From Candidatus Enterousia sp. (GTDB taxonomy: Bacteria > Pseudomonadota > Alphaproteobacteria > Rs-D84), in the NCBI GenBank assembly GCA_045646625.1, contig JAZRLB010000004.1, forward strand, positions 2,323-66,322: a DNA stretch of 64,000 bases. The letters are read 5' to 3'. This document shows positions 11,571-57,510 of this stretch, one piece after another. The notes beneath the pieces were generated by a model, which was given only the letters and a program-made list of their open reading frames with translations, searched no databases and was not told where the DNA came from. The position numbers and the translations under genes are program-made. Each line of letters starts with the position of its first letter. Position 1 is the stretch's first letter.

Positions 11571-12161
11571 TTATTTCTTGTTGTCTTTGCGAACCAATAC
11601 ATAACCCAAGCCCGCAACCAAGACAATCAACAGACCCCAGAACCAGATTGTGCTGCCGCCATTTTCATTTTTTTTTGCGACTTCTTCTGTTTCTGCAACT
11701 TCGACCGCAGCGGCATTGTATTCGACAACTGCGTTTGCGCGATCTGAATGTTCTGACTTAAATTTTTCCGCATCTTCTGACATAGCTTTTTTATTTTCAG
11801 CTGCAGCTGCTTTTTGTTCATCAGACATATCCGCTTCGACGTGACCACGCAATGTGTCCTGCATAAAATCCGCATACCCCTGTTCGCATTTGTCACCAAT
11901 TACCAATACAGGGACCCCACCAGATTCAAATTCACATTTTTTCAATGCATCACGGAACATAGGCAAATTCGCTTCGTCCATTACATTAACAGCTGTCACC
12001 TTTAATTCTGGGTACTCGTAGACCAAGGTGTTAGAAATAAATTCACGCGCGTGGTGGCAATGTGGACAGGATGGTGAATAATATATCGTGACGTCTGCAG
12101 CAGATGCAGCACCAGCAAATGTTAAACCCATAACAGCAGATAAAAGTGATAATTTTTTCAT
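11571..12161 (-). CDS. periplasmic thioredoxin/glutaredoxin-fold protein (CPHC) with signal peptide and C-terminal TM anchor
   Basis: ATG at 12161 preceded by AAAGGAG; signal peptide MKKLSLLSAVMGLTFAGAASA; CPHC active-site motif; GVPVLVIG; acidic linker; C-terminal hydrophobic helix. Confidence 0.7.
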   Translation of the reverse strand: MKKLSLLSAVMGLTFAGAASAADVTIYYSPSCPHCHHAREFISNTLVYEYPELKVTAVNVMDEANLPMFRDALKKCEFESGGVPVLVIGDKCEQGYADFMQDTLRGHVEADMSDEQKAAAAENKKAMSEDAEKFKSEHSDRANAVVEYNAAAVEVAETEEVAKKNENGGSTIWFWGLLIVLVAGLGYVLVRKDNKK

Positions 12162-12294
12162 ATTTAATACTCCTTTCAATGGTTCGATTATAGAAAATAT
12201 TTTTATAAACGCGCAAGCAATTTTTAATAAAATTTTCCTGTTGAAAAAAATACAATATCAAACACAATATATTGTAAAAAAAAGGAGGTAATTT

Positions 12295-14655: not shown

Positions 14656-14937
14656 TTATTGTCCATTCATCTTTTTAGTTAATTCACGACTGGGCTTGAA
14701 TAAAATAGTCGTGCTGGCCGGTAATGGCATTGGCTGGCCTGTACAGGGATTGTATCCAACCTTGGTCGCGCGGGCGCGTGGCTGGAATGTGCCAAAACCA
14801 CGAATTTCAATACGATCGCCGTTGGCAATAGATTCAATCATATGTTCGGATACTGTATCCAAAATCGCCGCCGCATCATTGGCGCGCATACGTTTGAAAC
14901 GAACCTGAATAGAACGTACAATGTCTGACCTTTTCAT
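14656..14937 (-). CDS. ihfB: integration host factor / HU family DNA-binding protein (IHF beta-like)
   Basis: 93 aa; IEIRGFGTF...R..GYNPCTG arm motif. Confidence 0.75.
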   Translation of the reverse strand: MKRSDIVRSIQVRFKRMRANDAAAILDTVSEHMIESIANGDRIEIRGFGTFQPRARATKVGYNPCTGQPMPLPASTTILFKPSRELTKKMNGQ

Positions 14938-43586: not shown

Positions 43587-43619
43587 AAAAAATCCCCCAC
43601 AATCAGGGGGATTTTTTTT
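43585..43619. terminator. intrinsic terminator after groEL
   Basis: aaaaaaaatcccccacaatcagggggatttttttt. Confidence 0.7.
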
Positions 43620-43699
43620 AATAGATATAAAATATTTTTCCTTTACATCTTTTTTTTATTTGAATACAATCAAAACGTCAACAAATAAAGGAAGGGCAA

Positions 43700-44227
43700 A
43701 TGGCAGACAAAACAACAAAAAAAACAACAGTTAAAAAGACTGCAACTAAACCTGCAGCTACAAAGAAACCTACTGTAAAAAAAACAACAGCAAAAAAAGC
43801 ACCTGTAAAAAAAATGACGGCGCCTGTTGAAGATAAATTCCCATGTGGCTGTGACAAGGGCTGCGCTTGTGGCGGCGATTGCGTATGCGCAAAAAAGAAA
43901 TGTACATTCGGCCGCTTTTTGAAAAAATTAATTTTGGTTTTGATTATTTTTGCATTGGGATTTGCATCCGCCAAAATGTGCTGCTGTCACAAGCGTGCAA
44001 AAATGGGTCCACGTCCAATGTTTGAAAACGGATGCCTGGTCGTAAAATGCGAAAAGATGGCTGAAAAAGTTGCTGCGATGGACACAAATGCAGACGGATG
44101 CGTCACACGCGAAGAATTCAAAGCGGCGCGCAAACATATGAAGCGTGCACCACAAGAAGTTGCAGAACAGCCTGTGGCCGCAGAATCAGCGCCAGAGATG
44201 CCGGAAACACCGGAAATGGATGACTAG
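43700..44227 (+). CDS. hypothetical small membrane protein: Lys/Thr-rich histone-H1-like N-tail, Cys-cluster, TM helix, EF-hand, acidic C-tail
   Basis: KKTTVKKTATKPAATKKPTVKK; CGCDKGCACGGDCVCAKKKC; LILVLIIFALGFASA; DTNADGCVTREE (canonical EF-hand loop). Confidence 0.5.
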   Translation: MADKTTKKTTVKKTATKPAATKKPTVKKTTAKKAPVKKMTAPVEDKFPCGCDKGCACGGDCVCAKKKCTFGRFLKKLILVLIIFALGFASAKMCCCHKRAKMGPRPMFENGCLVVKCEKMAEKVAAMDTNADGCVTREEFKAARKHMKRAPQEVAEQPVAAESAPEMPETPEMDD

Positions 44228-44240
44228 TTCAGGTTTTATT

Positions 44241-44269
44241 GGGGCCACAAATGCGGCCCCTTTTGTTTT
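44241..44269 (+). terminator. intrinsic terminator
   Basis: ggggccacaaatgcggcccc + ttttgtttt. Confidence 0.7.
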
Positions 44270-44341: not shown

Positions 44342-44779
44342 ATGAAATTCAGATTATTAGCAGCCGGTGTATGCGTACTGACGTTGGCAGCCTGTGGTGA
44401 TAATGCCCAGAATCCTGAACTGTTAAAAGGTGCGAGTTTTGTTTCTGCGCAACCGGGCGTTGATATCACACTGTCGTTCGATCCGGTTGAAATGCGCGTA
44501 TACGGTGGCGTTGTTAATCGTTATAACGGCGGATATACCGCGGATGGCAACAACATTAAATTCGAAGGTTTTGCATCAACTATGATGATGGGTGATGCCG
44601 AAGCAATGGAAACAGAACAAGAATACTTTGAATTTATGCCAACAGTCGAAACATATGTATTGGACGAAGGCAAACTGACACTGATTTCAGGTGATGGCAA
44701 AGAAATAATCTTTACCCAAATCGAAGTAGAACCAGCAGAAACAGCCGCGTCAGCGACCCCAGAAACAGTTTCTGAATAA
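44342..44779 (+). CDS. lipoprotein with META/HslJ-like domain
   Basis: Lipobox LAAC; NRYNGGYTADGNNIKF..STMMMG pattern of HslJ-like META domain. Confidence 0.55.
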   Translation: MKFRLLAAGVCVLTLAACGDNAQNPELLKGASFVSAQPGVDITLSFDPVEMRVYGGVVNRYNGGYTADGNNIKFEGFASTMMMGDAEAMETEQEYFEFMPTVETYVLDEGKLTLISGDGKEIIFTQIEVEPAETAASATPETVSE

Positions 44780-44856
44780 ATTCATTCATATTCACTTGAC
44801 AATCGTTAAAAGAATATGTATAATTTGGCGGCGTTCGATAAGAACACGGCAGTTTT

Positions 44857-44932
44857 GGCCCCATCGTCTAGAGGCCTAGGACACCGCCCTTTCAAGGCGA
44901 GAACACCGGTTCGAATCCGGTTGGGGCTGCCA
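44857..44932 (+). tRNA. tRNA-Glu (anticodon UUC)
   Basis: GGCCCCATCGTCTAGAGGCCTAGGACACCGCCCTTTCAAGGCG...GGTTCGAATCCGG...CCA; anticodon loop CTTTCAA. Confidence 0.9.
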
Positions 44933-45055: not shown

Positions 45056-46819
45056 TTATACACCGTGCTGTTCTCCTGAACTATCAATATCTTTGGTAAT
45101 AATTATTTTAGAAACAGCGTTTGTTCCTTTTTTAATTTTTCTAGTCTTAGTTTCTATCAACTCTTTTTTGTATTCTTTAAACCAAGCCTGTAATTCACTT
45201 ACCGAATCAAAATATCTGCCAGACTCACTCGGAAAATATTCTCGCGCTTTTGGCAACCCTTCCAATGACTCTAAGTTTTCTGCACAGAAAGAGAAAAGAC
45301 CTCCTATTTCTTTTGGCGCCCCCTTCAAAGATTTTAATTTATTTCCTTCGGAGCACAAAAAATTTCTCCCAACCCTTCTTGGGCTCCCATATAATGTAAT
45401 CAACTGATTACCTCTACATATAAAATCATCCGCAACCTCCTCCGGTCCACCACTTAGGCTTGTCAATTTATTATGTTCACAACCAAAGGTACCGTTGATT
45501 ATTTTTGGCGCCCCTTTCAATGTGGTTAATTCATTAAAATCACAATAAAAAGACCTTCCAACATATTCTGGCGCACCGTGTAGCGATGTTAATTTATTAC
45601 CGCGTATATAAAAATATCCATCAACTAATTTTGGGAACCCTTCTAAAGACTCTAACACCCCATCAATAATCCTAATATCACCCGTAATTTTTAATTTGGA
45701 TATATTTGGAAAATGCGAAATCTCAATCTTTTGAAAACAGATTGCTGGAATTTCTGTGCCAGATGCCAAATCTACTATATTTTTTATATTACCATCGTTG
45801 TCTATAACGTACAACTGCCCACTTCTGCAAAATACAACTCCCGCATCCATAGGATCAAAGGTTTTGTTTTCATCAAATCTTTTTTGCGGGATTAAGGACA
45901 ATTTTTTCTGACGAATAAAATAATTTTTCGTCATCCCAAAAGCATCATCAAATTCACGAGACAGTGTTGCCATGTTATTTTTATATCTACATGTTCTAGG
46001 GGAAATGGATTTTTGCAAATTCCATGGCAGCCCTTTACGAGATACAAAATTTATACAATGCGGATAAGTTTCATATTCTTTACCATATAACAAGATAGGT
46101 TTATTTCCTAATTTCATTATAAAAATATCATTGTCTGTACGTATCGATTCATCGTGATATTTATCCGAAAGATCTAATGGAAAAAAAGATACCTCTATAC
46201 CATTTAACACGCTTCTAAAACAATATTTACCGATATCTCCTGGCATATCAAACCACCACCAAAGCCCCGCAGAGGCATCAACATATCTAATTCTTATATT
46301 AAAATATTCATAAAATCGTTTTCTAAAAACATATCCCTGGTCAGCATATACTTTTTCCTCGTCATAAACTGATTGCCCTGCTTCATCGTCCCACAAAAAT
46401 AAGCATCTTAAAAAAATACTTGTTTTGATACAATAATTGAACAATGTCAGCGCATCCTGCTTTGTTAACGAAACATCTGGTTTGTTAAAATTGTTCACAA
46501 TTCTGCTGATGTTTTTTTCTAACTCAATCGAACTTCTGTCATTGCAATCTTTATGAACAGCAACCATAAATTCAGATTCTATTTTTGAAAAGACCTTCTT
46601 TTCGCCCGTAGCACTTTTCGCAGCAAACCTGGAGTAAATATGTTCAAAATTTACACTACCGTTTTTAATATCTTCTTCAGTGTACGAGTTGCCACAAAAA
46701 GGACACGTGCCATATACGCCATCGGAAATACCGACACGATAGCCCTTTGCATTCCCTTTTTCATCACGATACAATTCTGGTTTTTTATTTTTCATAATTA
46801 GTACTATATCATAAAACAC
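45056..46819 (-). CDS. hypothetical 587-aa protein: N-terminal HNH-like zinc-finger motif, central region, C-terminal about seven 22-residue LxSLxGAPxxVxGxFxCxxNxL repeats
   Basis: GTCPFCGNSYTEEDIKNGSVNFEHI; repeats KLTSLHGAPEYVGRSFYCDFNE / LTTLKGAPKIINGTFGCEHNK / LTSLSGGPEEVADDFICRGNQ etc.; AT-rich coding sequence. Confidence 0.6.
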   Translation of the reverse strand: MFYDIVLIMKNKKPELYRDEKGNAKGYRVGISDGVYGTCPFCGNSYTEEDIKNGSVNFEHIYSRFAAKSATGEKKVFSKIESEFMVAVHKDCNDRSSIELEKNISRIVNNFNKPDVSLTKQDALTLFNYCIKTSIFLRCLFLWDDEAGQSVYDEEKVYADQGYVFRKRFYEYFNIRIRYVDASAGLWWWFDMPGDIGKYCFRSVLNGIEVSFFPLDLSDKYHDESIRTDNDIFIMKLGNKPILLYGKEYETYPHCINFVSRKGLPWNLQKSISPRTCRYKNNMATLSREFDDAFGMTKNYFIRQKKLSLIPQKRFDENKTFDPMDAGVVFCRSGQLYVIDNDGNIKNIVDLASGTEIPAICFQKIEISHFPNISKLKITGDIRIIDGVLESLEGFPKLVDGYFYIRGNKLTSLHGAPEYVGRSFYCDFNELTTLKGAPKIINGTFGCEHNKLTSLSGGPEEVADDFICRGNQLITLYGSPRRVGRNFLCSEGNKLKSLKGAPKEIGGLFSFCAENLESLEGLPKAREYFPSESGRYFDSVSELQAWFKEYKKELIETKTRKIKKGTNAVSKIIITKDIDSSGEQHGV

Positions 46820-56544: not shown

Positions 56545-56886
56545 ATGTCATTTACACAGGAAAAAAGAATAAAAGTCCGCAAGTGTCAGGGTTGTGAAAA
56601 ACACTGCGAATTTGGTGTTAAATTCGAAGAATCAAAAGTCATCCACAAAGGAAAACTGGTATCCAAACAATGCGTATATCCAACACTGGGTGGAAATGCC
56701 ATAAAATCATACTTTAATAGTATTGGCGAAACTGTTAAGCCTGGCTTTCTTATTATGGACAATATTGTCATACTGGATAGGGTGCCCAAAAAAATAAATG
56801 CTGAAACTATGTCACATATTACCGAAGACATGTTAAAAGAGGCACAACTAATTTCTTATTTGTGCGACCATTACAAAACAAGATAG
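56545..56886 (+). CDS. hypothetical protein with N-terminal CxxC..HC motif
   Basis: 113-aa ORF followed by terminator ccaccgcccgattgggtgg+T-run at 56904-56931. Confidence 0.4.
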   Translation: MSFTQEKRIKVRKCQGCEKHCEFGVKFEESKVIHKGKLVSKQCVYPTLGGNAIKSYFNSIGETVKPGFLIMDNIVILDRVPKKINAETMSHITEDMLKEAQLISYLCDHYKTR

Positions 56887-57092
56887 AAACAACAAAACTA
56901 ATCCACCGCCCGATTGGGTGGTTTTTTGTTTGTGTGACAGCTTTGGTGTTTTTAATGAAAAAATTAGTCGCAAAAGAATGTGCAACATAAGATAATATAC
57001 AATACAAATGCGATAACCCCAATATGACACATCGGTATATTTGGCACATTACTTGATCATATCTAAATAATAAAACATGCGCCCGTGGGCGC

Positions 57093-57440
57093 ATGGTGCA
57101 GATGAACATATAAGCCGGATTCTGTCCTGCCGACAGGCCAGTATGTTTCGCATACCACCCCGCGGTAGTGGGCATGATTAATCTGCATATTGCATTACTG
57201 CGATATGTCAAGCCTTCTACCCGCCCCCGATGTGGGACACATATAGGGAGCCTATTTGAAGTTGCTGCGCGCAGAGATTGCCCGTTTCACTCGAATTTAA
57301 TCGTTTACGTCACTGTTGCTCTAATCGTCGGGTTGCCCCGCCCGGTATATTAGCCGGTACGCTGTCCCAAGCAGTCCGGACTTTCCTCCGCCTGTTGCCA
57401 GACGGCCATGCCCTGTGCATCTTACGGTTGCTGATTTTAG
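57093..57440 (-). ncRNA. rnpB: RNase P RNA (bacterial type A)
   Basis: Minus strand contains GGCGGAGGAAAGUCCGGAC (P4 5' strand), ACCGGCUAAUAUACCGGGCGGGGCAACCCGACGAUUAGAGCAACAG (P10-P12 region) and ACAGAAUCCGGCUUAU (P4 3' strand); terminator hairpin gcgcccgtgggcgc at 57079-57092; ends approximate (+/-15 nt). Confidence 0.8.
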
Positions 57441-57510
57441 CAGTTTTTTATGATATTTCAACTTTTCTTTTTACAGTTGAATATTTGCGCATTTTTCACT
57501 AAATTTATAT

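What the first reader, a model, noticed from the sequence alone, without database searches (positions are those of the whole stretch)
43700..44227. Chimeric small protein: histone-H1-like Lys-rich tail + metallothionein-like Cys cluster + TM helix + canonical EF-hand
Immediately after groEL (separate terminators on both sides) lies a 175-aa ORF. It has an N-terminal KKTT/KPAA-type basic repeat region. This is followed by CGCDKGCACGGDCVCAKKKC, then a hydrophobic helix, a CCC triplet, and a textbook 12-residue EF-hand loop (D-T-N-A-D-G-C-V-T-R-E-E). The C-terminus is acidic and Pro/Glu-rich. This combination is not a described family. It could be a membrane-tethered metal/Ca-binding regulator or DNA-associated protein. 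Its placement next to the heat-shock operon may be meaningful.
Basis: seen in the sequence. Interest (0 to 1): 0.6.

Follow-up and report, generated by a model that had tools for sequence, protein, structure and literature searches.

The report
Membrane-anchored EF-hand protein with basic tail
The ORF is a real, conserved gene of an undescribed protein family found so far only in tiny-genome gut Alphaproteobacteria. The protein has one membrane helix, with a histone-like lysine tail and a cysteine cluster before it and a calcium-binding EF-hand after it. The gene's usual neighbour is the nucleoid protein gene HU, not the heat-shock operon.

Summary

It is not a spurious ORF:
- More than 400 homologues exist, all labelled hypothetical. 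All named ones come from uncultured gut Alphaproteobacteria (Candidatus Enterousia, order Rs-D84, and relatives).
- All members examined keep the same module order.
- dN/dS is about 0.2.
- A promoter and Shine-Dalgarno site are conserved upstream.

The EF-hand is supported by four lines of evidence: the PROSITE pattern, a family profile that hits only EF-hand proteins in the PDB, an AlphaFold helix-loop-helix, and invariant calcium-ligand positions. It is a single EF-hand preceded by a beta-hairpin. One cysteine in the hairpin and one at loop position 7 are invariant.

The lysine tail resembles histone H1 in composition only. The cysteine cluster matches no known family.

The groEL adjacency is not conserved, even in the closest relative. 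The recurrent and probably ancestral neighbour is HU, on the same strand but as a separate transcription unit.

The best reading is a single-pass inner-membrane protein. The basic tail and metal-thiolate cluster would lie in the cytoplasm and the Ca-binding module in the periplasm, possibly linking nucleoid and membrane. The architecture is well supported; the function is inferred.

The parts
43593..43610 (+). Terminator-like hairpin plus T-run that ends groEL and separates it from the gene.
   Evidence: Equivalent hairpins sit between HU and the gene in L001 and L087.
43642..43670 (+). Promoter-like site TTTACA-N17-TACAAT. Its -10 element ends 29 nt before the ATG.
   Evidence: 10 of 12 matches. 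TTTAC[AT]-N16-18-TA[CAG]AAT is found in 75 of 84 homologous loci, ending 26-36 nt upstream of the start in 72 of them.
43688..43696 (+). Shine-Dalgarno-like AAGGAAGGG.
   Evidence: Sequence. AAAGGAAGG is conserved in the upstream regions of homologues.
43700..44227 (+). CDS of 175 aa plus stop codon: the family member in this window.
   Evidence: dN/dS is about 0.20 over 400 sampled pairs of homologues.
43700..43822 (+). Residues 1-41: Lys/Thr/Ala/Pro-rich tail, predicted disordered, 34% Lys, pI 10.8. Inferred to be cytoplasmic and to bind polyanions or DNA.
   Evidence: pLDDT below 50. Pfam HC2 scores 22.7 bits against a cut-off of 40. Tail length varies from 6 to 100 aa across the family (median 39), with a median K+R fraction of 0.29. 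dN/dS is 0.25.
43844..43903 (+). Residues 49-68: Cys cluster CGCDKGCACGGDCVCAKKKC (7 Cys). Inferred to be a cytoplasmic metal-thiolate site next to the membrane.
   Evidence: C51 and C55 are invariant and C49, C57 and C68 are at least 90% conserved in A1. A CxC-type cluster is retained in almost all divergent members. There are 4-10 Cys before the TM helix.
43907..43978 (+). Residues 70-93: the single transmembrane helix. The hydrophobic core L77-A91 is flanked by invariant K75 and K76 and by K92 (at least 90% conserved).
   Evidence: AlphaFold helix 70-93 with pLDDT 87-90. Hydropathy. Lowest dN/dS of any module, 0.10.
43979..43987 (+). Residues 94-96: the CCC triplet at the outer end of the TM helix. 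It is variable in the family (CCC, CCF, CPM, CPC and others).
44018..44041 (+). Residues 107-114: beta-hairpin M-F-E-N-G-C-L-V with an N-G turn. It contains the invariant C112.
   Evidence: AlphaFold strands 107-109 and 112-114, and again in the domain-only model. G111 and C112 are invariant.
44051..44143 (+). Residues 118-148: EF-hand helix-loop-helix. Helix E is 118-127, the loop is D128-E139 (nt 44081-44116) and helix F is 137-148.
44150..44224 (+). Residues 151-175: acidic Pro/Glu-rich tail, predicted disordered. It is the least constrained module.
   Evidence: dN/dS is 0.48.
44241..44260 (+). Intrinsic-terminator-like hairpin (6 G-C pairs) plus T-run that ends the transcription unit.

Best explanation
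The gene encodes a single-pass inner-membrane protein of an undescribed family. All named homologues come from gut Alphaproteobacteria with reduced genomes (Candidatus Enterousia, order Rs-D84, and relatives).

Shown:
- It is a real gene under purifying selection, with its own conserved promoter, ribosome-binding site and terminator.
- The module order is conserved in all members examined: basic disordered tail, CxC cysteine cluster, TM helix, beta-hairpin, one canonical EF-hand, acidic tail.

Inferred topology: N-terminus in the cytoplasm and C-terminus in the periplasm. The N-side carries a median net charge of +12 and there is no signal peptide.

Inferred mechanism:
- The periplasmic hairpin plus EF-hand module binds Ca2+. 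Because it is a lone EF-hand, it probably does so as a homodimer. It would be stapled or tuned by the invariant Cys pair C112/C134.
- On the cytoplasmic face, the CxC cluster holds a soft metal such as Zn or Cu.
- The Lys-rich tail binds a polyanion, most likely nucleoid DNA.

On this reading the protein acts as a membrane-anchored, nucleoid-associated tether. Its assembly state may depend on envelope Ca2+ or redox state.
For: Real gene:
- 157 homologues at E<=0.01, 291 more found with a profile of divergent members, and 76 GTDB species loci.
- dN/dS is 0.20 overall and 0.10-0.15 in the TM, EF-hand and Cys modules.
- The promoter is conserved in 75 of 84 loci, together with the Shine-Dalgarno site.

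Architecture:
- It is conserved down to about 30% identity.
- In P0121 the hairpin plus EF-hand module is duplicated in tandem, which shows it is a discrete unit.

EF-hand:
- PS00018 has a unique match in the window.
- Loop positions 1, 3, 5, 6, 8, 9 and 12 are conserved in 106 homologues.
- The family profile hits EF-hand proteins in the PDB: all 60 listed hits are EF-hand proteins, out of 289 at E<=10, and the best E-value is 7e-6.
- Pfam EF-hand_1 matches 45 of 45 C-terminal domains at E<=1, with a best E-value of 3e-6.
- AlphaFold gives a helix-loop-helix with pLDDT about 80.
- Nearly all listed Foldseek neighbours are EF-hand proteins, with rmsd 1-3.7 A over about 30 residues.

Topology:
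- There is one hydrophobic helix.
- The N-side has a median net charge of +12 against +3 on the C-side, and N exceeds C in 91% of 295 members.
- A signal-peptide-bearing thioredoxin-fold protein with a CPHC motif is encoded at 11571-12179 (-), so periplasmic disulfide formation is plausible.

DNA link:
- The tail is KKxx/AKKA-type, like the KAAK/PAAK repeats of Rv3852, the membrane-anchored mycobacterial nucleoid protein, and of MtHU (PMC8233713).
- HU lies directly upstream on the same strand, with a median gap of 121 bp, in 33 of 73 species loci. These include the most divergent loci.
- The same holds for 4 of 4 divergent members looked up.

Retention:
- The gene is kept in genomes below 1 Mb (PMC12306168).
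Against: - No binding of Ca, other metals or DNA has been measured, and there is no expression data.
- The window protein's own Pfam scores are below the curated cut-offs: EF-hand_1 17.3-20.2 bits against 25.4, and HC2 22.7 bits against 40.
- The 15-residue flanks on the two sides of the TM helix are equally basic (4 K/R each). The local positive-inside signal is therefore ambiguous.
- The number of Cys after the TM helix (3-7) shows no bias towards even numbers, as regular disulfide pairing would predict.
- The Lys tail shrinks to a few residues in some members (P0198, P0227, P0190), so it is not the core of the family.
- HU and the gene are separate transcription units, with a terminator between them. 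HU is part of a larger conserved block: alaS, two unknown genes, then HU. The adjacency could therefore be inherited gene order rather than functional coupling. It is lost in 33 of 73 loci and in this window.
- Foldseek E-values are all above 1.
Confidence: 0.4

Rival explanations
1. Envelope Ca2+ or divalent-cation sensor or buffer with no role at the nucleoid. The periplasmic EF-hand module is the business end, comparable to the periplasmic EF-hand proteins EfhP of Pseudomonas and CaBP of Caulobacter. The basic N-terminal tail would only fix the topology, or bind acidic phospholipids or ribosomes.
For: - The hairpin plus EF-hand module and the TM helix are the most conserved parts (dN/dS 0.10-0.11). 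They are the only parts with residues invariant across divergent members.
- The tail can shrink to about 6 residues.
- P0121 duplicates only the EF-hand module.
- Periplasmic EF-hand Ca sensors are known in Proteobacteria (PMC9132961; abstract of PMC13171946).
Against: - The tail is under purifying selection (dN/dS 0.25). At a median of 39 aa with 29% K+R it is much longer than topology requires.
- The recurrent HU adjacency would be unexplained.
- A conserved cytoplasmic Cys cluster would have no role.
Confidence: 0.3
2. Membrane-bound handler of thiophilic metals or a redox protein. The CxC cluster, juxtamembrane CCC and Cys-bearing loops would bind Zn, Cu or Fe, or an Fe-S cluster. This would be analogous to metallothioneins or to the 'FeoB-associated Cys-rich membrane protein' class. 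The EF-hand-like loop would then be a structural or secondary site.
For: - The protein has 13 Cys (7.4%). C51, C55, C112 and C134 are invariant in A1.
- Cys at EF-loop position 7 is 100% conserved, which Ca2+ binding does not require.
- Some members add more CxC clusters: P0124, P0190, and P0137 at its C-terminus.
Against: - No metallothionein or PF12669 match appears even at E<=10.
- None of the contexts examined contains a metal transporter or a feo gene.
- All oxygen-ligand positions of the EF-loop (1, 3, 5, 9, 12) are conserved, as expected for Ca2+ rather than soft metals.
Confidence: 0.2
3. A heat-shock or chaperone-linked factor that functionally belongs with groESL, and with the downstream META/HslJ-like lipoprotein.
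For: - In this window the gene lies 113 bp after groEL on the same strand. A META-domain lipoprotein follows it.
- groEL is also adjacent in 6 other loci.
Against: - A terminator and the gene's own promoter lie between groEL and the gene.
- In the other groEL-adjacent loci groEL is convergent, not co-directional.
- Only 5 of 73 species loci have groEL within 4 kb.
- The nearest relative, L009, has another gene upstream.
- The META gene is shared only with L009.
Confidence: 0.03
4. Spurious low-complexity ORF, not a gene.
For: The N- and C-terminal thirds are low-complexity and predicted disordered.
Against: - Hundreds of full-length homologues have an intact frame.
- dN/dS is 0.2 with synonymous sites near saturation.
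- The promoter and Shine-Dalgarno site are conserved.
Confidence: 0.01

Closest known systems
Rv3852 of Mycobacterium tuberculosis (membrane-anchored nucleoid-associated protein)
   Same: It has a Lys/Ala/Pro-rich histone-H1-like repeat region (KAAK/PAAK) followed by a single TM helix that anchors a DNA-binding protein to the membrane (PMC8233713). This is the closest functional analogue for the tail-plus-TM half.
   Different: - It has no Cys cluster and no EF-hand or other extracytoplasmic domain.
- It is restricted to actinobacteria.
- The NCBIfam Rv3852_fam model scores 7.5 bits against a cut-off of 100. The resemblance is therefore one of composition, not family membership.
Periplasmic bacterial EF-hand Ca2+ sensors: EfhP (PA4107) of P. 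aeruginosa; CaBP of Caulobacter vibrioides
   Same: They carry canonical EF-hand loops in small envelope proteins of Proteobacteria. EfhP binds Ca2+ with a Kd of 13.7 uM and is predicted to be periplasmic (PMC9132961). CaBP is exported to the periplasm by the Sec pathway (abstract of PMC13171946).
   Different: - They have two or three EF-hands and a signal peptide, and are soluble.
- The protein here has a single EF-hand preceded by a beta-hairpin, an invariant Cys at loop position 7, a permanent TM anchor and a large basic cytoplasmic part.
- No similarity was detected outside the EF-hand motif. Multi-EF-hand proteins match the family profile only at profile positions of about 77-108.
Chlamydial Hc2 and bacterial histone-H1-like proteins (Pfam PF07382)
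   Same: The tail has a Lys/Ala/Thr/Pro repeat composition. There is a weak HC2 hit (E 1.2e-4) over residues 6-40. PF07382 is precomputed on about a quarter of the close homologues.
   Different: - The score is below the gathering threshold (22.7 against 40 bits).
- The matched region is low-complexity, is variable in length, and is nearly absent in some family members.
Metallothionein-type CxC clusters and the 'FeoB-associated Cys-rich membrane protein' class (Pfam PF12669)
   Same: They share a short CxC/CxxC-rich cluster next to basic residues and a TM helix. This comparison rests on my own knowledge of that family's typical sequence.
   Different: - The order is reversed here: the cluster comes before the TM helix.
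- There is no Pfam match even at E<=10.
- No feo genes lie nearby.
STIM1 (eukaryotic ER Ca2+ sensor) - analogy only, from my own knowledge
   Same: It is a single-pass membrane protein with an EF-hand on the non-cytosolic side and a polybasic Lys-rich tail on the cytosolic side. That tail binds an anionic surface when the EF-hand changes state.
   Different: - The orientation in the sequence is opposite.
- STIM1 has SAM and coiled-coil domains.
- There is no homology: a single C-domain member gave EF-hand_STIM1 at E=0.14.

Membership tests
EF-hand (PROSITE PS00018 / Pfam PF00036 clan) | A 12-residue loop with the pattern D-x-[DNS]-x-[DNS]-G-x-[ILV]-x-x-x-E, followed by a hydrophobic residue. 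| tested here: met
   DTNADGCVTREEF matches PS00018, and it is the only match in the six-frame translation of the window. In 106 homologues D1 is 100%, position 3 is N/D, position 5 is D/N, G6 is 99%, position 8 is V/I, position 9 is T/S/N/D and E12 is 100%.
EF-hand (PROSITE PS00018 / Pfam PF00036 clan) | A score at or above Pfam's curated gathering threshold. | tested here: not met
   For the window protein EF-hand_1 scores 17.3 bits (whole protein) and 20.2 bits (C-domain alone) against a cut-off of 25.4. All 45 C-domains tested match EF-hand_1 at E<=1, with a best E-value of 3.2e-6.
EF-hand (PROSITE PS00018 / Pfam PF00036 clan) | The loop is flanked by two helices (helix-loop-helix fold). 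| tested here: met
   AlphaFold gives H118-127, a loop, then H137-148, with pLDDT 74-88. Foldseek neighbours are almost exclusively EF-hand proteins (rmsd 1-3.7 A), but E-values are above 1 for this 49-residue query. The family profile hits EF-hand proteins in the PDB: all 60 listed hits, with a best E-value of 7e-6.
EF-hand (PROSITE PS00018 / Pfam PF00036 clan) | Occurs as a pair of EF-hands within one domain. | tested here: not met
   There is one loop per module. A beta-hairpin (F-x-N-G-C-L) precedes it instead of a second helix-loop-helix. Only P0121 has two modules. Pairing by dimerisation could not be tested.
EF-hand (PROSITE PS00018 / Pfam PF00036 clan) | Binds Ca2+. | not testable with these tools
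   This needs ITC, a 45Ca overlay or Tb3+ luminescence on the recombinant domain.
Histone H1-like nucleoprotein HC2 (PF07382) | Profile match above the gathering score. | tested here: not met
   22.7 bits against 40, over residues 6-40 only.
Histone H1-like nucleoprotein HC2 (PF07382) | Binds and condenses DNA. | not testable with these tools
   The inference rests only on composition (34% Lys, pI 10.8) and on adjacency to HU.
Rv3852 family (NCBIfam NF050153) | Equivalog profile match. | tested here: not met
   7.5 bits against a cut-off of 100.
XopAW type III effector, Ca-binding (NCBIfam NF041410) | Subfamily profile match. | tested here: not met
   14.9 bits against a cut-off of 120, and only over the EF-hand at residues 122-156.
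Metallothionein / FeoB-associated Cys-rich membrane protein (PF12669) | Profile match to the Cys-rich region. | tested here: not met
   No such family is listed, even at E<=10.
groESL heat-shock operon | Co-transcription with groESL, or conserved adjacency to it. | tested here: not met
   A terminator and the gene's own promoter lie in between. groEL is within 4 kb in 5 of 73 species loci, and there it is convergent. It is absent upstream in the closest relative, L009.
New family defined here (basic tail - CxC - TM - hairpin - EF-hand) | Full-length collinear match with the invariant G-C of the hairpin and D...G-C...E of the loop. | tested here: met
   The window protein is 100% identical to P0001 and 46-91% identical to the 119 other listed homologues. 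Invariant columns are given.

The most novel reading that the evidence does not exclude
A new class of bacterial transmembrane coupler that works in a STIM-like way. A lone, Cys-bearing EF-hand in the periplasm reads envelope Ca2+ or redox state. Through dimerisation across one TM helix, it controls how a cytoplasmic metal-thiolate cluster and histone-like tail hold the nucleoid, or another polyanion, at the membrane. That would make it a signal-responsive, membrane-tethered nucleoid protein, retained as a core function in symbionts with genomes below 1 Mb.
Probability: 0.15. Interest if true: 0.7.

Novelty: new variant of a known kind. Interest (0 to 1): 0.45.

Why it matters
Bacterial Ca2+ signalling and links between the nucleoid and the membrane are both poorly understood. 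Very few EF-hand proteins in bacteria have a defined partner. This family places a canonical EF-hand, a metal-thiolate cluster and a histone-like tail on one small single-pass protein. It is kept in many species of Candidatus Enterousia and its relatives, a lineage whose genomes are mostly below 1 Mb, which suggests it is not dispensable there.

If the coupling is real, the family would give a minimal, tractable model for transmembrane Ca2+ or redox sensing linked to the chromosome. It would also be a second example, after mycobacterial Rv3852, of a membrane-anchored nucleoid protein.

If the function is only envelope Ca2+ binding, this is still a new, clearly delimited domain family: a hairpin plus a single EF-hand with an invariant Cys pair. 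That would be worth a Pfam entry. The organisms are uncultured, so testing requires heterologous expression.

Tried and rejected
- **Heat-shock linkage:** rejected on synteny and on the separate promoter and terminator.
- **Spurious ORF:** rejected.
- **ORFs on the opposite strand** (43678-43974 and others): ignored, because selection and homologues support the + frame.
- **Phage or defence origin:** no PHROGs or PADLOC hit.
- **Curated families:** no Pfam or NCBIfam hit above its cut-off.
- **Foldseek with the full-length model:** only insignificant hits (E above 4), because two thirds of the model is disordered. Repeating with the 49-residue domain gave a consistent EF-hand neighbourhood, but E was still above 1.
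- **Even-number test for periplasmic cysteines:** no bias towards even numbers (counts 3-7), so uninformative.
- **Local positive-inside test:** flanks are equal at 4 against 4. Only the whole-side net charge discriminates.
- **Exact look-up of the window protein (P0001) in the contig index:** nothing found.
- **Operon with HU:** rejected. A terminator follows HU and the gene has its own promoter.
- **Literature:** no paper combines EF-hand, transmembrane, lysine-rich and nucleoid in bacteria. The one Enterousia paper read (full-text term search) covers genome reduction and metabolism; no term search for this protein was run, and the other listed Enterousia papers were not read.
Full report
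**1. The observation**

Window 43700-44227 (+) is an ATG-initiated ORF of 175 aa.
- A tail at residues 1-41 with 14 Lys, 11 Thr, 7 Ala and 3 Pro (pI 10.8).
- CGCDKGCACGGDCVCAKKKC at residues 49-68.
- One strongly hydrophobic stretch with core L77-A91.
- CCC at residues 94-96.
- The 12-residue loop D128-T-N-A-D-G-C-V-T-R-E-E139.
- An acidic Pro/Glu tail at residues 151-175.

A terminator-like hairpin follows groEL at 43593-43610 and another follows the ORF at 44241-44260. A TTTACA-N17-TACAAT site lies at 43642-43670, and AAGGAAGGG precedes the ATG.

The PROSITE EF-hand pattern occurs once in the six-frame translation of the whole window, at this site. The protein has 7.4% Cys and 17% Lys, against 1.5% and 6.6% in the other ORFs.

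**2. It is a real gene of a conserved, undescribed family**

A search of 5.8 billion proteins gave 157 hits at E<=0.01. The listed hits are 110-216 aa, nearly all 150-216 aa. Those that carry a name are 'hypothetical protein' from 'MAG: Alphaproteobacteria bacterium'.

A scan of GTDB species genomes found 76 loci. All are in uncultured gut Alphaproteobacteria: Candidatus Enterousia, ruminant 'RGIG' MAGs, bird, human and termite MAGs.

An exhaustive profile search with the tail removed (alignment A2) found about 77 cluster representatives at 50% identity with E<1e-10. About 60 of these are single full-length matches of roughly 105-220 aa. A second search seeded with those divergent members added 291 proteins, again all hypothetical.

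Nei-Gojobori estimates on 400 sampled pairs give dN/dS of 0.20 overall. By module: TM 0.10, EF-hand domain 0.11, Cys cluster 0.15, basic tail 0.25, juxtamembrane segment 0.29 and acidic tail 0.48. Synonymous sites are near saturation.

Upstream, TTTAC[AT]-N16-18-TA[CAG]AAT is present in 75 of 84 loci. In 72 of those it ends 26-36 nt before the start codon. AAAGGAAGG is also conserved.

Pfam, NCBIfam (both run on the window protein), PHROGs and PADLOC give nothing above their thresholds.

According to PMC12306168, Candidatus Enterousia belongs to order Rs-D84. Its genomes are mostly below 1 Mb and lack the TCA cycle and respiratory chains. A lineage-specific gene kept in such genomes is unlikely to be dispensable; this last point is inference.

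**3. Anatomy**

Alignments A1 (40 close members) and A3 (26 divergent members) show the same order everywhere:
1. M-A-x-K, then a K/A/P/T-rich tail.
2. A CxC-type cluster.
3. Basic residues, then the TM helix (xKKLIxxLIIFALGFAxAK).
4. A variable juxtamembrane stretch containing Cys.
5. F-x-N-G-C-L-(V/D)...K-C-P.
6. M-D-x-N-x-D-G-C-(V/I)-x-x-x-E-(F/Y).
7. A basic helix.
8. A variable tail that is often acidic and Pro-rich.

Across the divergent set the only invariant residues, apart from the initiator Met, are the hairpin Cys (C112), the Cys at EF-loop position 7 (C134) and E139. D128 is about 90% conserved.

Variation within the family:
- The tail ranges from 6 to 100 residues, with a median of 39 and a median K+R fraction of 0.29.
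- P0121 carries two tandem copies of the hairpin plus EF-hand module after one TM helix. This shows the module is a discrete unit.
- P0137 adds a C-terminal CxC cluster, and P0124 and P0190 expand the N-terminal one.

AlphaFold2 with A1 gives a confident TM helix at 70-93 (pLDDT 87-90). It also gives a hairpin at 107-109/112-114, a helix at 118-127, a loop and a helix at 137-148 (pLDDT 74-83). The tail, Cys cluster and acidic end are disordered. The 49-residue domain modelled alone with 45 sequences reaches pLDDT 80.6 with the same elements.

**4. The EF-hand**

- In 106 homologues the loop shows D1 100%, N/D at 3, D/N at 5, G6 99%, C7 100%, V/I at 8, T/S/N/D at 9 and E12 100%.
- The family profile searched against PDB sequences returns 289 hits at E<=10. 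All 60 listed are EF-hand proteins, all through profile positions of about 72-107, with one match (5e37) extending back to position 55. Examples are EhCaBP1 at 7e-6 and calmodulins at about 1e-4 to 1e-2.
- EF-hand_1 matches all 45 C-domains scanned at E<=1 (best 3e-6), but the window protein itself stays below the gathering score.
- Foldseek hits are statistically insignificant for so short a query. Even so, they are almost exclusively EF-hand proteins superposing at 1-3.7 A over about 30 residues. One of them is a homodimerising single-site troponin C peptide.

So the loop and fold are those of an EF-hand. What is unusual is that it is single, follows a beta-hairpin and carries an invariant Cys at position 7, matched by an invariant Cys in the hairpin.

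From established EF-hand knowledge, position 7 ligates Ca2+ through its backbone carbonyl. The side chain is therefore free for another role, such as a disulfide to C112 or soft-metal or redox chemistry. This is inference, because the model coordinates could not be inspected.

**5. Topology**

There is one hydrophobic helix and no signal peptide. Across 295 members the N-side has a median of 14 K/R against 3 D/E (net +12). The C-side has 14 against 11 (net +3), and N exceeds C in 91%.

Translocating the N-side is implausible, so N-in/C-out is inferred. That places the tail and CxC cluster in the cytoplasm, and the hairpin, EF-hand and acidic tail in the periplasm.

Three points bear on this:
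- The 15-residue flanks are equally basic, 4 against 4.
- The Cys count after the TM helix has no even-number bias.
- The window encodes an exported thioredoxin-fold protein with a DsbA-like CPHC motif at 11571-12179 (-), so periplasmic disulfide formation is plausible.

**6. Genomic context**

In this window the gene follows groES-groEL and precedes a META-domain (HslJ-like) lipoprotein gene and tRNA-Glu. That arrangement is not conserved.

| Context among 73 species loci with the gene resolved | Loci |
|---|---|
| HU (PF00216) directly upstream, same strand, median gap 121 bp | 33 |
| HU further away within the flank | 4 |
| No HU within the 4-kb upstream flank | 33 |
| Too little upstream sequence | 3 |

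Separately, groEL lies within the flank in 5 of the 73 loci, and there it is convergent.

The recurrent block is alaS(-), an unknown gene of about 280 aa (-), an unknown gene of about 158 aa (+), HU(+), then the gene(+). It includes the most divergent loci, L079 and L080.

Four of four divergent members looked up independently also sit just downstream of HU, while their downstream neighbours differ. The closest relative with DNA in hand (L009, about 82% identity) shares the META gene downstream but has an unrelated gene upstream.

The window has no HU gene near the locus. It has only an IHF/HU-family gene at 14656-14937 (-).

HU and the gene are separated by a terminator, and the gene has its own promoter. 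The association is therefore one of neighbourhood, not an operon. It may partly reflect inherited gene order.

**7. Mechanism proposed**

Shown: a conserved, independently transcribed gene for a protein with one TM helix, a basic disordered N-tail, a CxC cluster and a hairpin plus EF-hand module.

Inferred:
- N-in/C-out topology.
- Ca2+ binding by the periplasmic module, probably as a homodimer, since lone EF-hands normally pair.
- Stabilisation or regulation through the invariant C112/C134 pair.
- A soft-metal thiolate site at the inner face of the membrane.
- The Lys-rich tail contacting DNA or another polyanion, making the protein a membrane-anchored nucleoid tether.

The nearest functional precedent for the cytoplasmic half is Rv3852, which has KAAK/PAAK repeats plus a TM helix and is membrane-localised (PMC8233713). 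For the periplasmic half the precedents are EfhP and Caulobacter CaBP. I put about 0.4 on this composite reading.

The main rivals are:
- An envelope Ca2+ sensor or buffer in which the tail has no DNA role (0.3).
- A metal or redox handler centred on the cysteines (0.2).

The heat-shock reading (0.03) and the spurious-ORF reading (0.01) are effectively excluded.

**8. Novelty and score**

Each motif is of a known kind. The combination, and the hairpin plus single EF-hand module with its invariant Cys pair, is not covered by any curated family. No paper in the library searched combines EF-hand, transmembrane, lysine-rich and nucleoid in bacteria.

I classify it as a new variant of known kinds: membrane-anchored EF-hand protein and membrane-tethered histone-like protein. 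It is of moderate interest (0.45). It is a clean, well-delimited family in an unusual group of reduced-genome symbionts. However, the function is unproven and the hosts are uncultured.

Noticed in passing
L001 3940-4419 (+) and its equivalents in most related loci (for example L087 2896-3423, L089 1304-1837): A conserved gene of about 158-177 aa with no Pfam match always lies just upstream of HU in the block alaS(-)/unk280(-)/unk158(+)/HU(+)/EF-hand gene(+). It is a second lineage-specific unknown tied to the same neighbourhood.
   Followed up: partly
window 44796-44932 (+): A perfect sigma-70 consensus (TTGACA-17-TATAAT, 12 of 12) at 44796-44824 lies directly upstream of tRNA-Glu(UUC) at 44857-44932. 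In the relative L009, a large serine-recombinase-like ORF (537 aa; assignment from my reading of the sequence, not tested) occupies the region after the META gene. This suggests a rearrangement or insertion hot spot.
   Followed up: partly
window 45056-46819 (-): A 587-aa ORF with no Pfam hit. Its C-terminal half is built of repeats of the type L-x-S-L-x-G-x-P (about 20 residues each, leucine-rich-repeat-like). Only a weak relative (30% identity) turned up in one other locus, L058.
   Followed up: no
window 11571-12179 (-): A 202-aa protein with a signal-peptide-like N-terminus and a CPHC motif on a thioredoxin/glutaredoxin fold. It is a candidate DsbA-like periplasmic oxidoreductase in an organism reported to lack respiratory chains. 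How it would be re-oxidised is unclear.
   Followed up: partly
window 57095-57423 (-): RNase P RNA, class A (169 bits). The mechanical ORFs at 56819-57211 and 57278-57502 overlap it and are artefacts.
   Followed up: yes
window 44342-44779 (+): A META-domain (HslJ-like) lipoprotein with a lipobox (LAAC) lies directly downstream of the gene. It is shared only with the closest relative, L009.
   Followed up: partly
P0121 (L083/L084 5001-5627): This family member has the hairpin plus EF-hand module duplicated in tandem after a single TM helix. It sits after uvrB-tsaE rather than after HU. It would be a natural test case for whether two modules pair like a classical EF-hand domain.
   Followed up: partly
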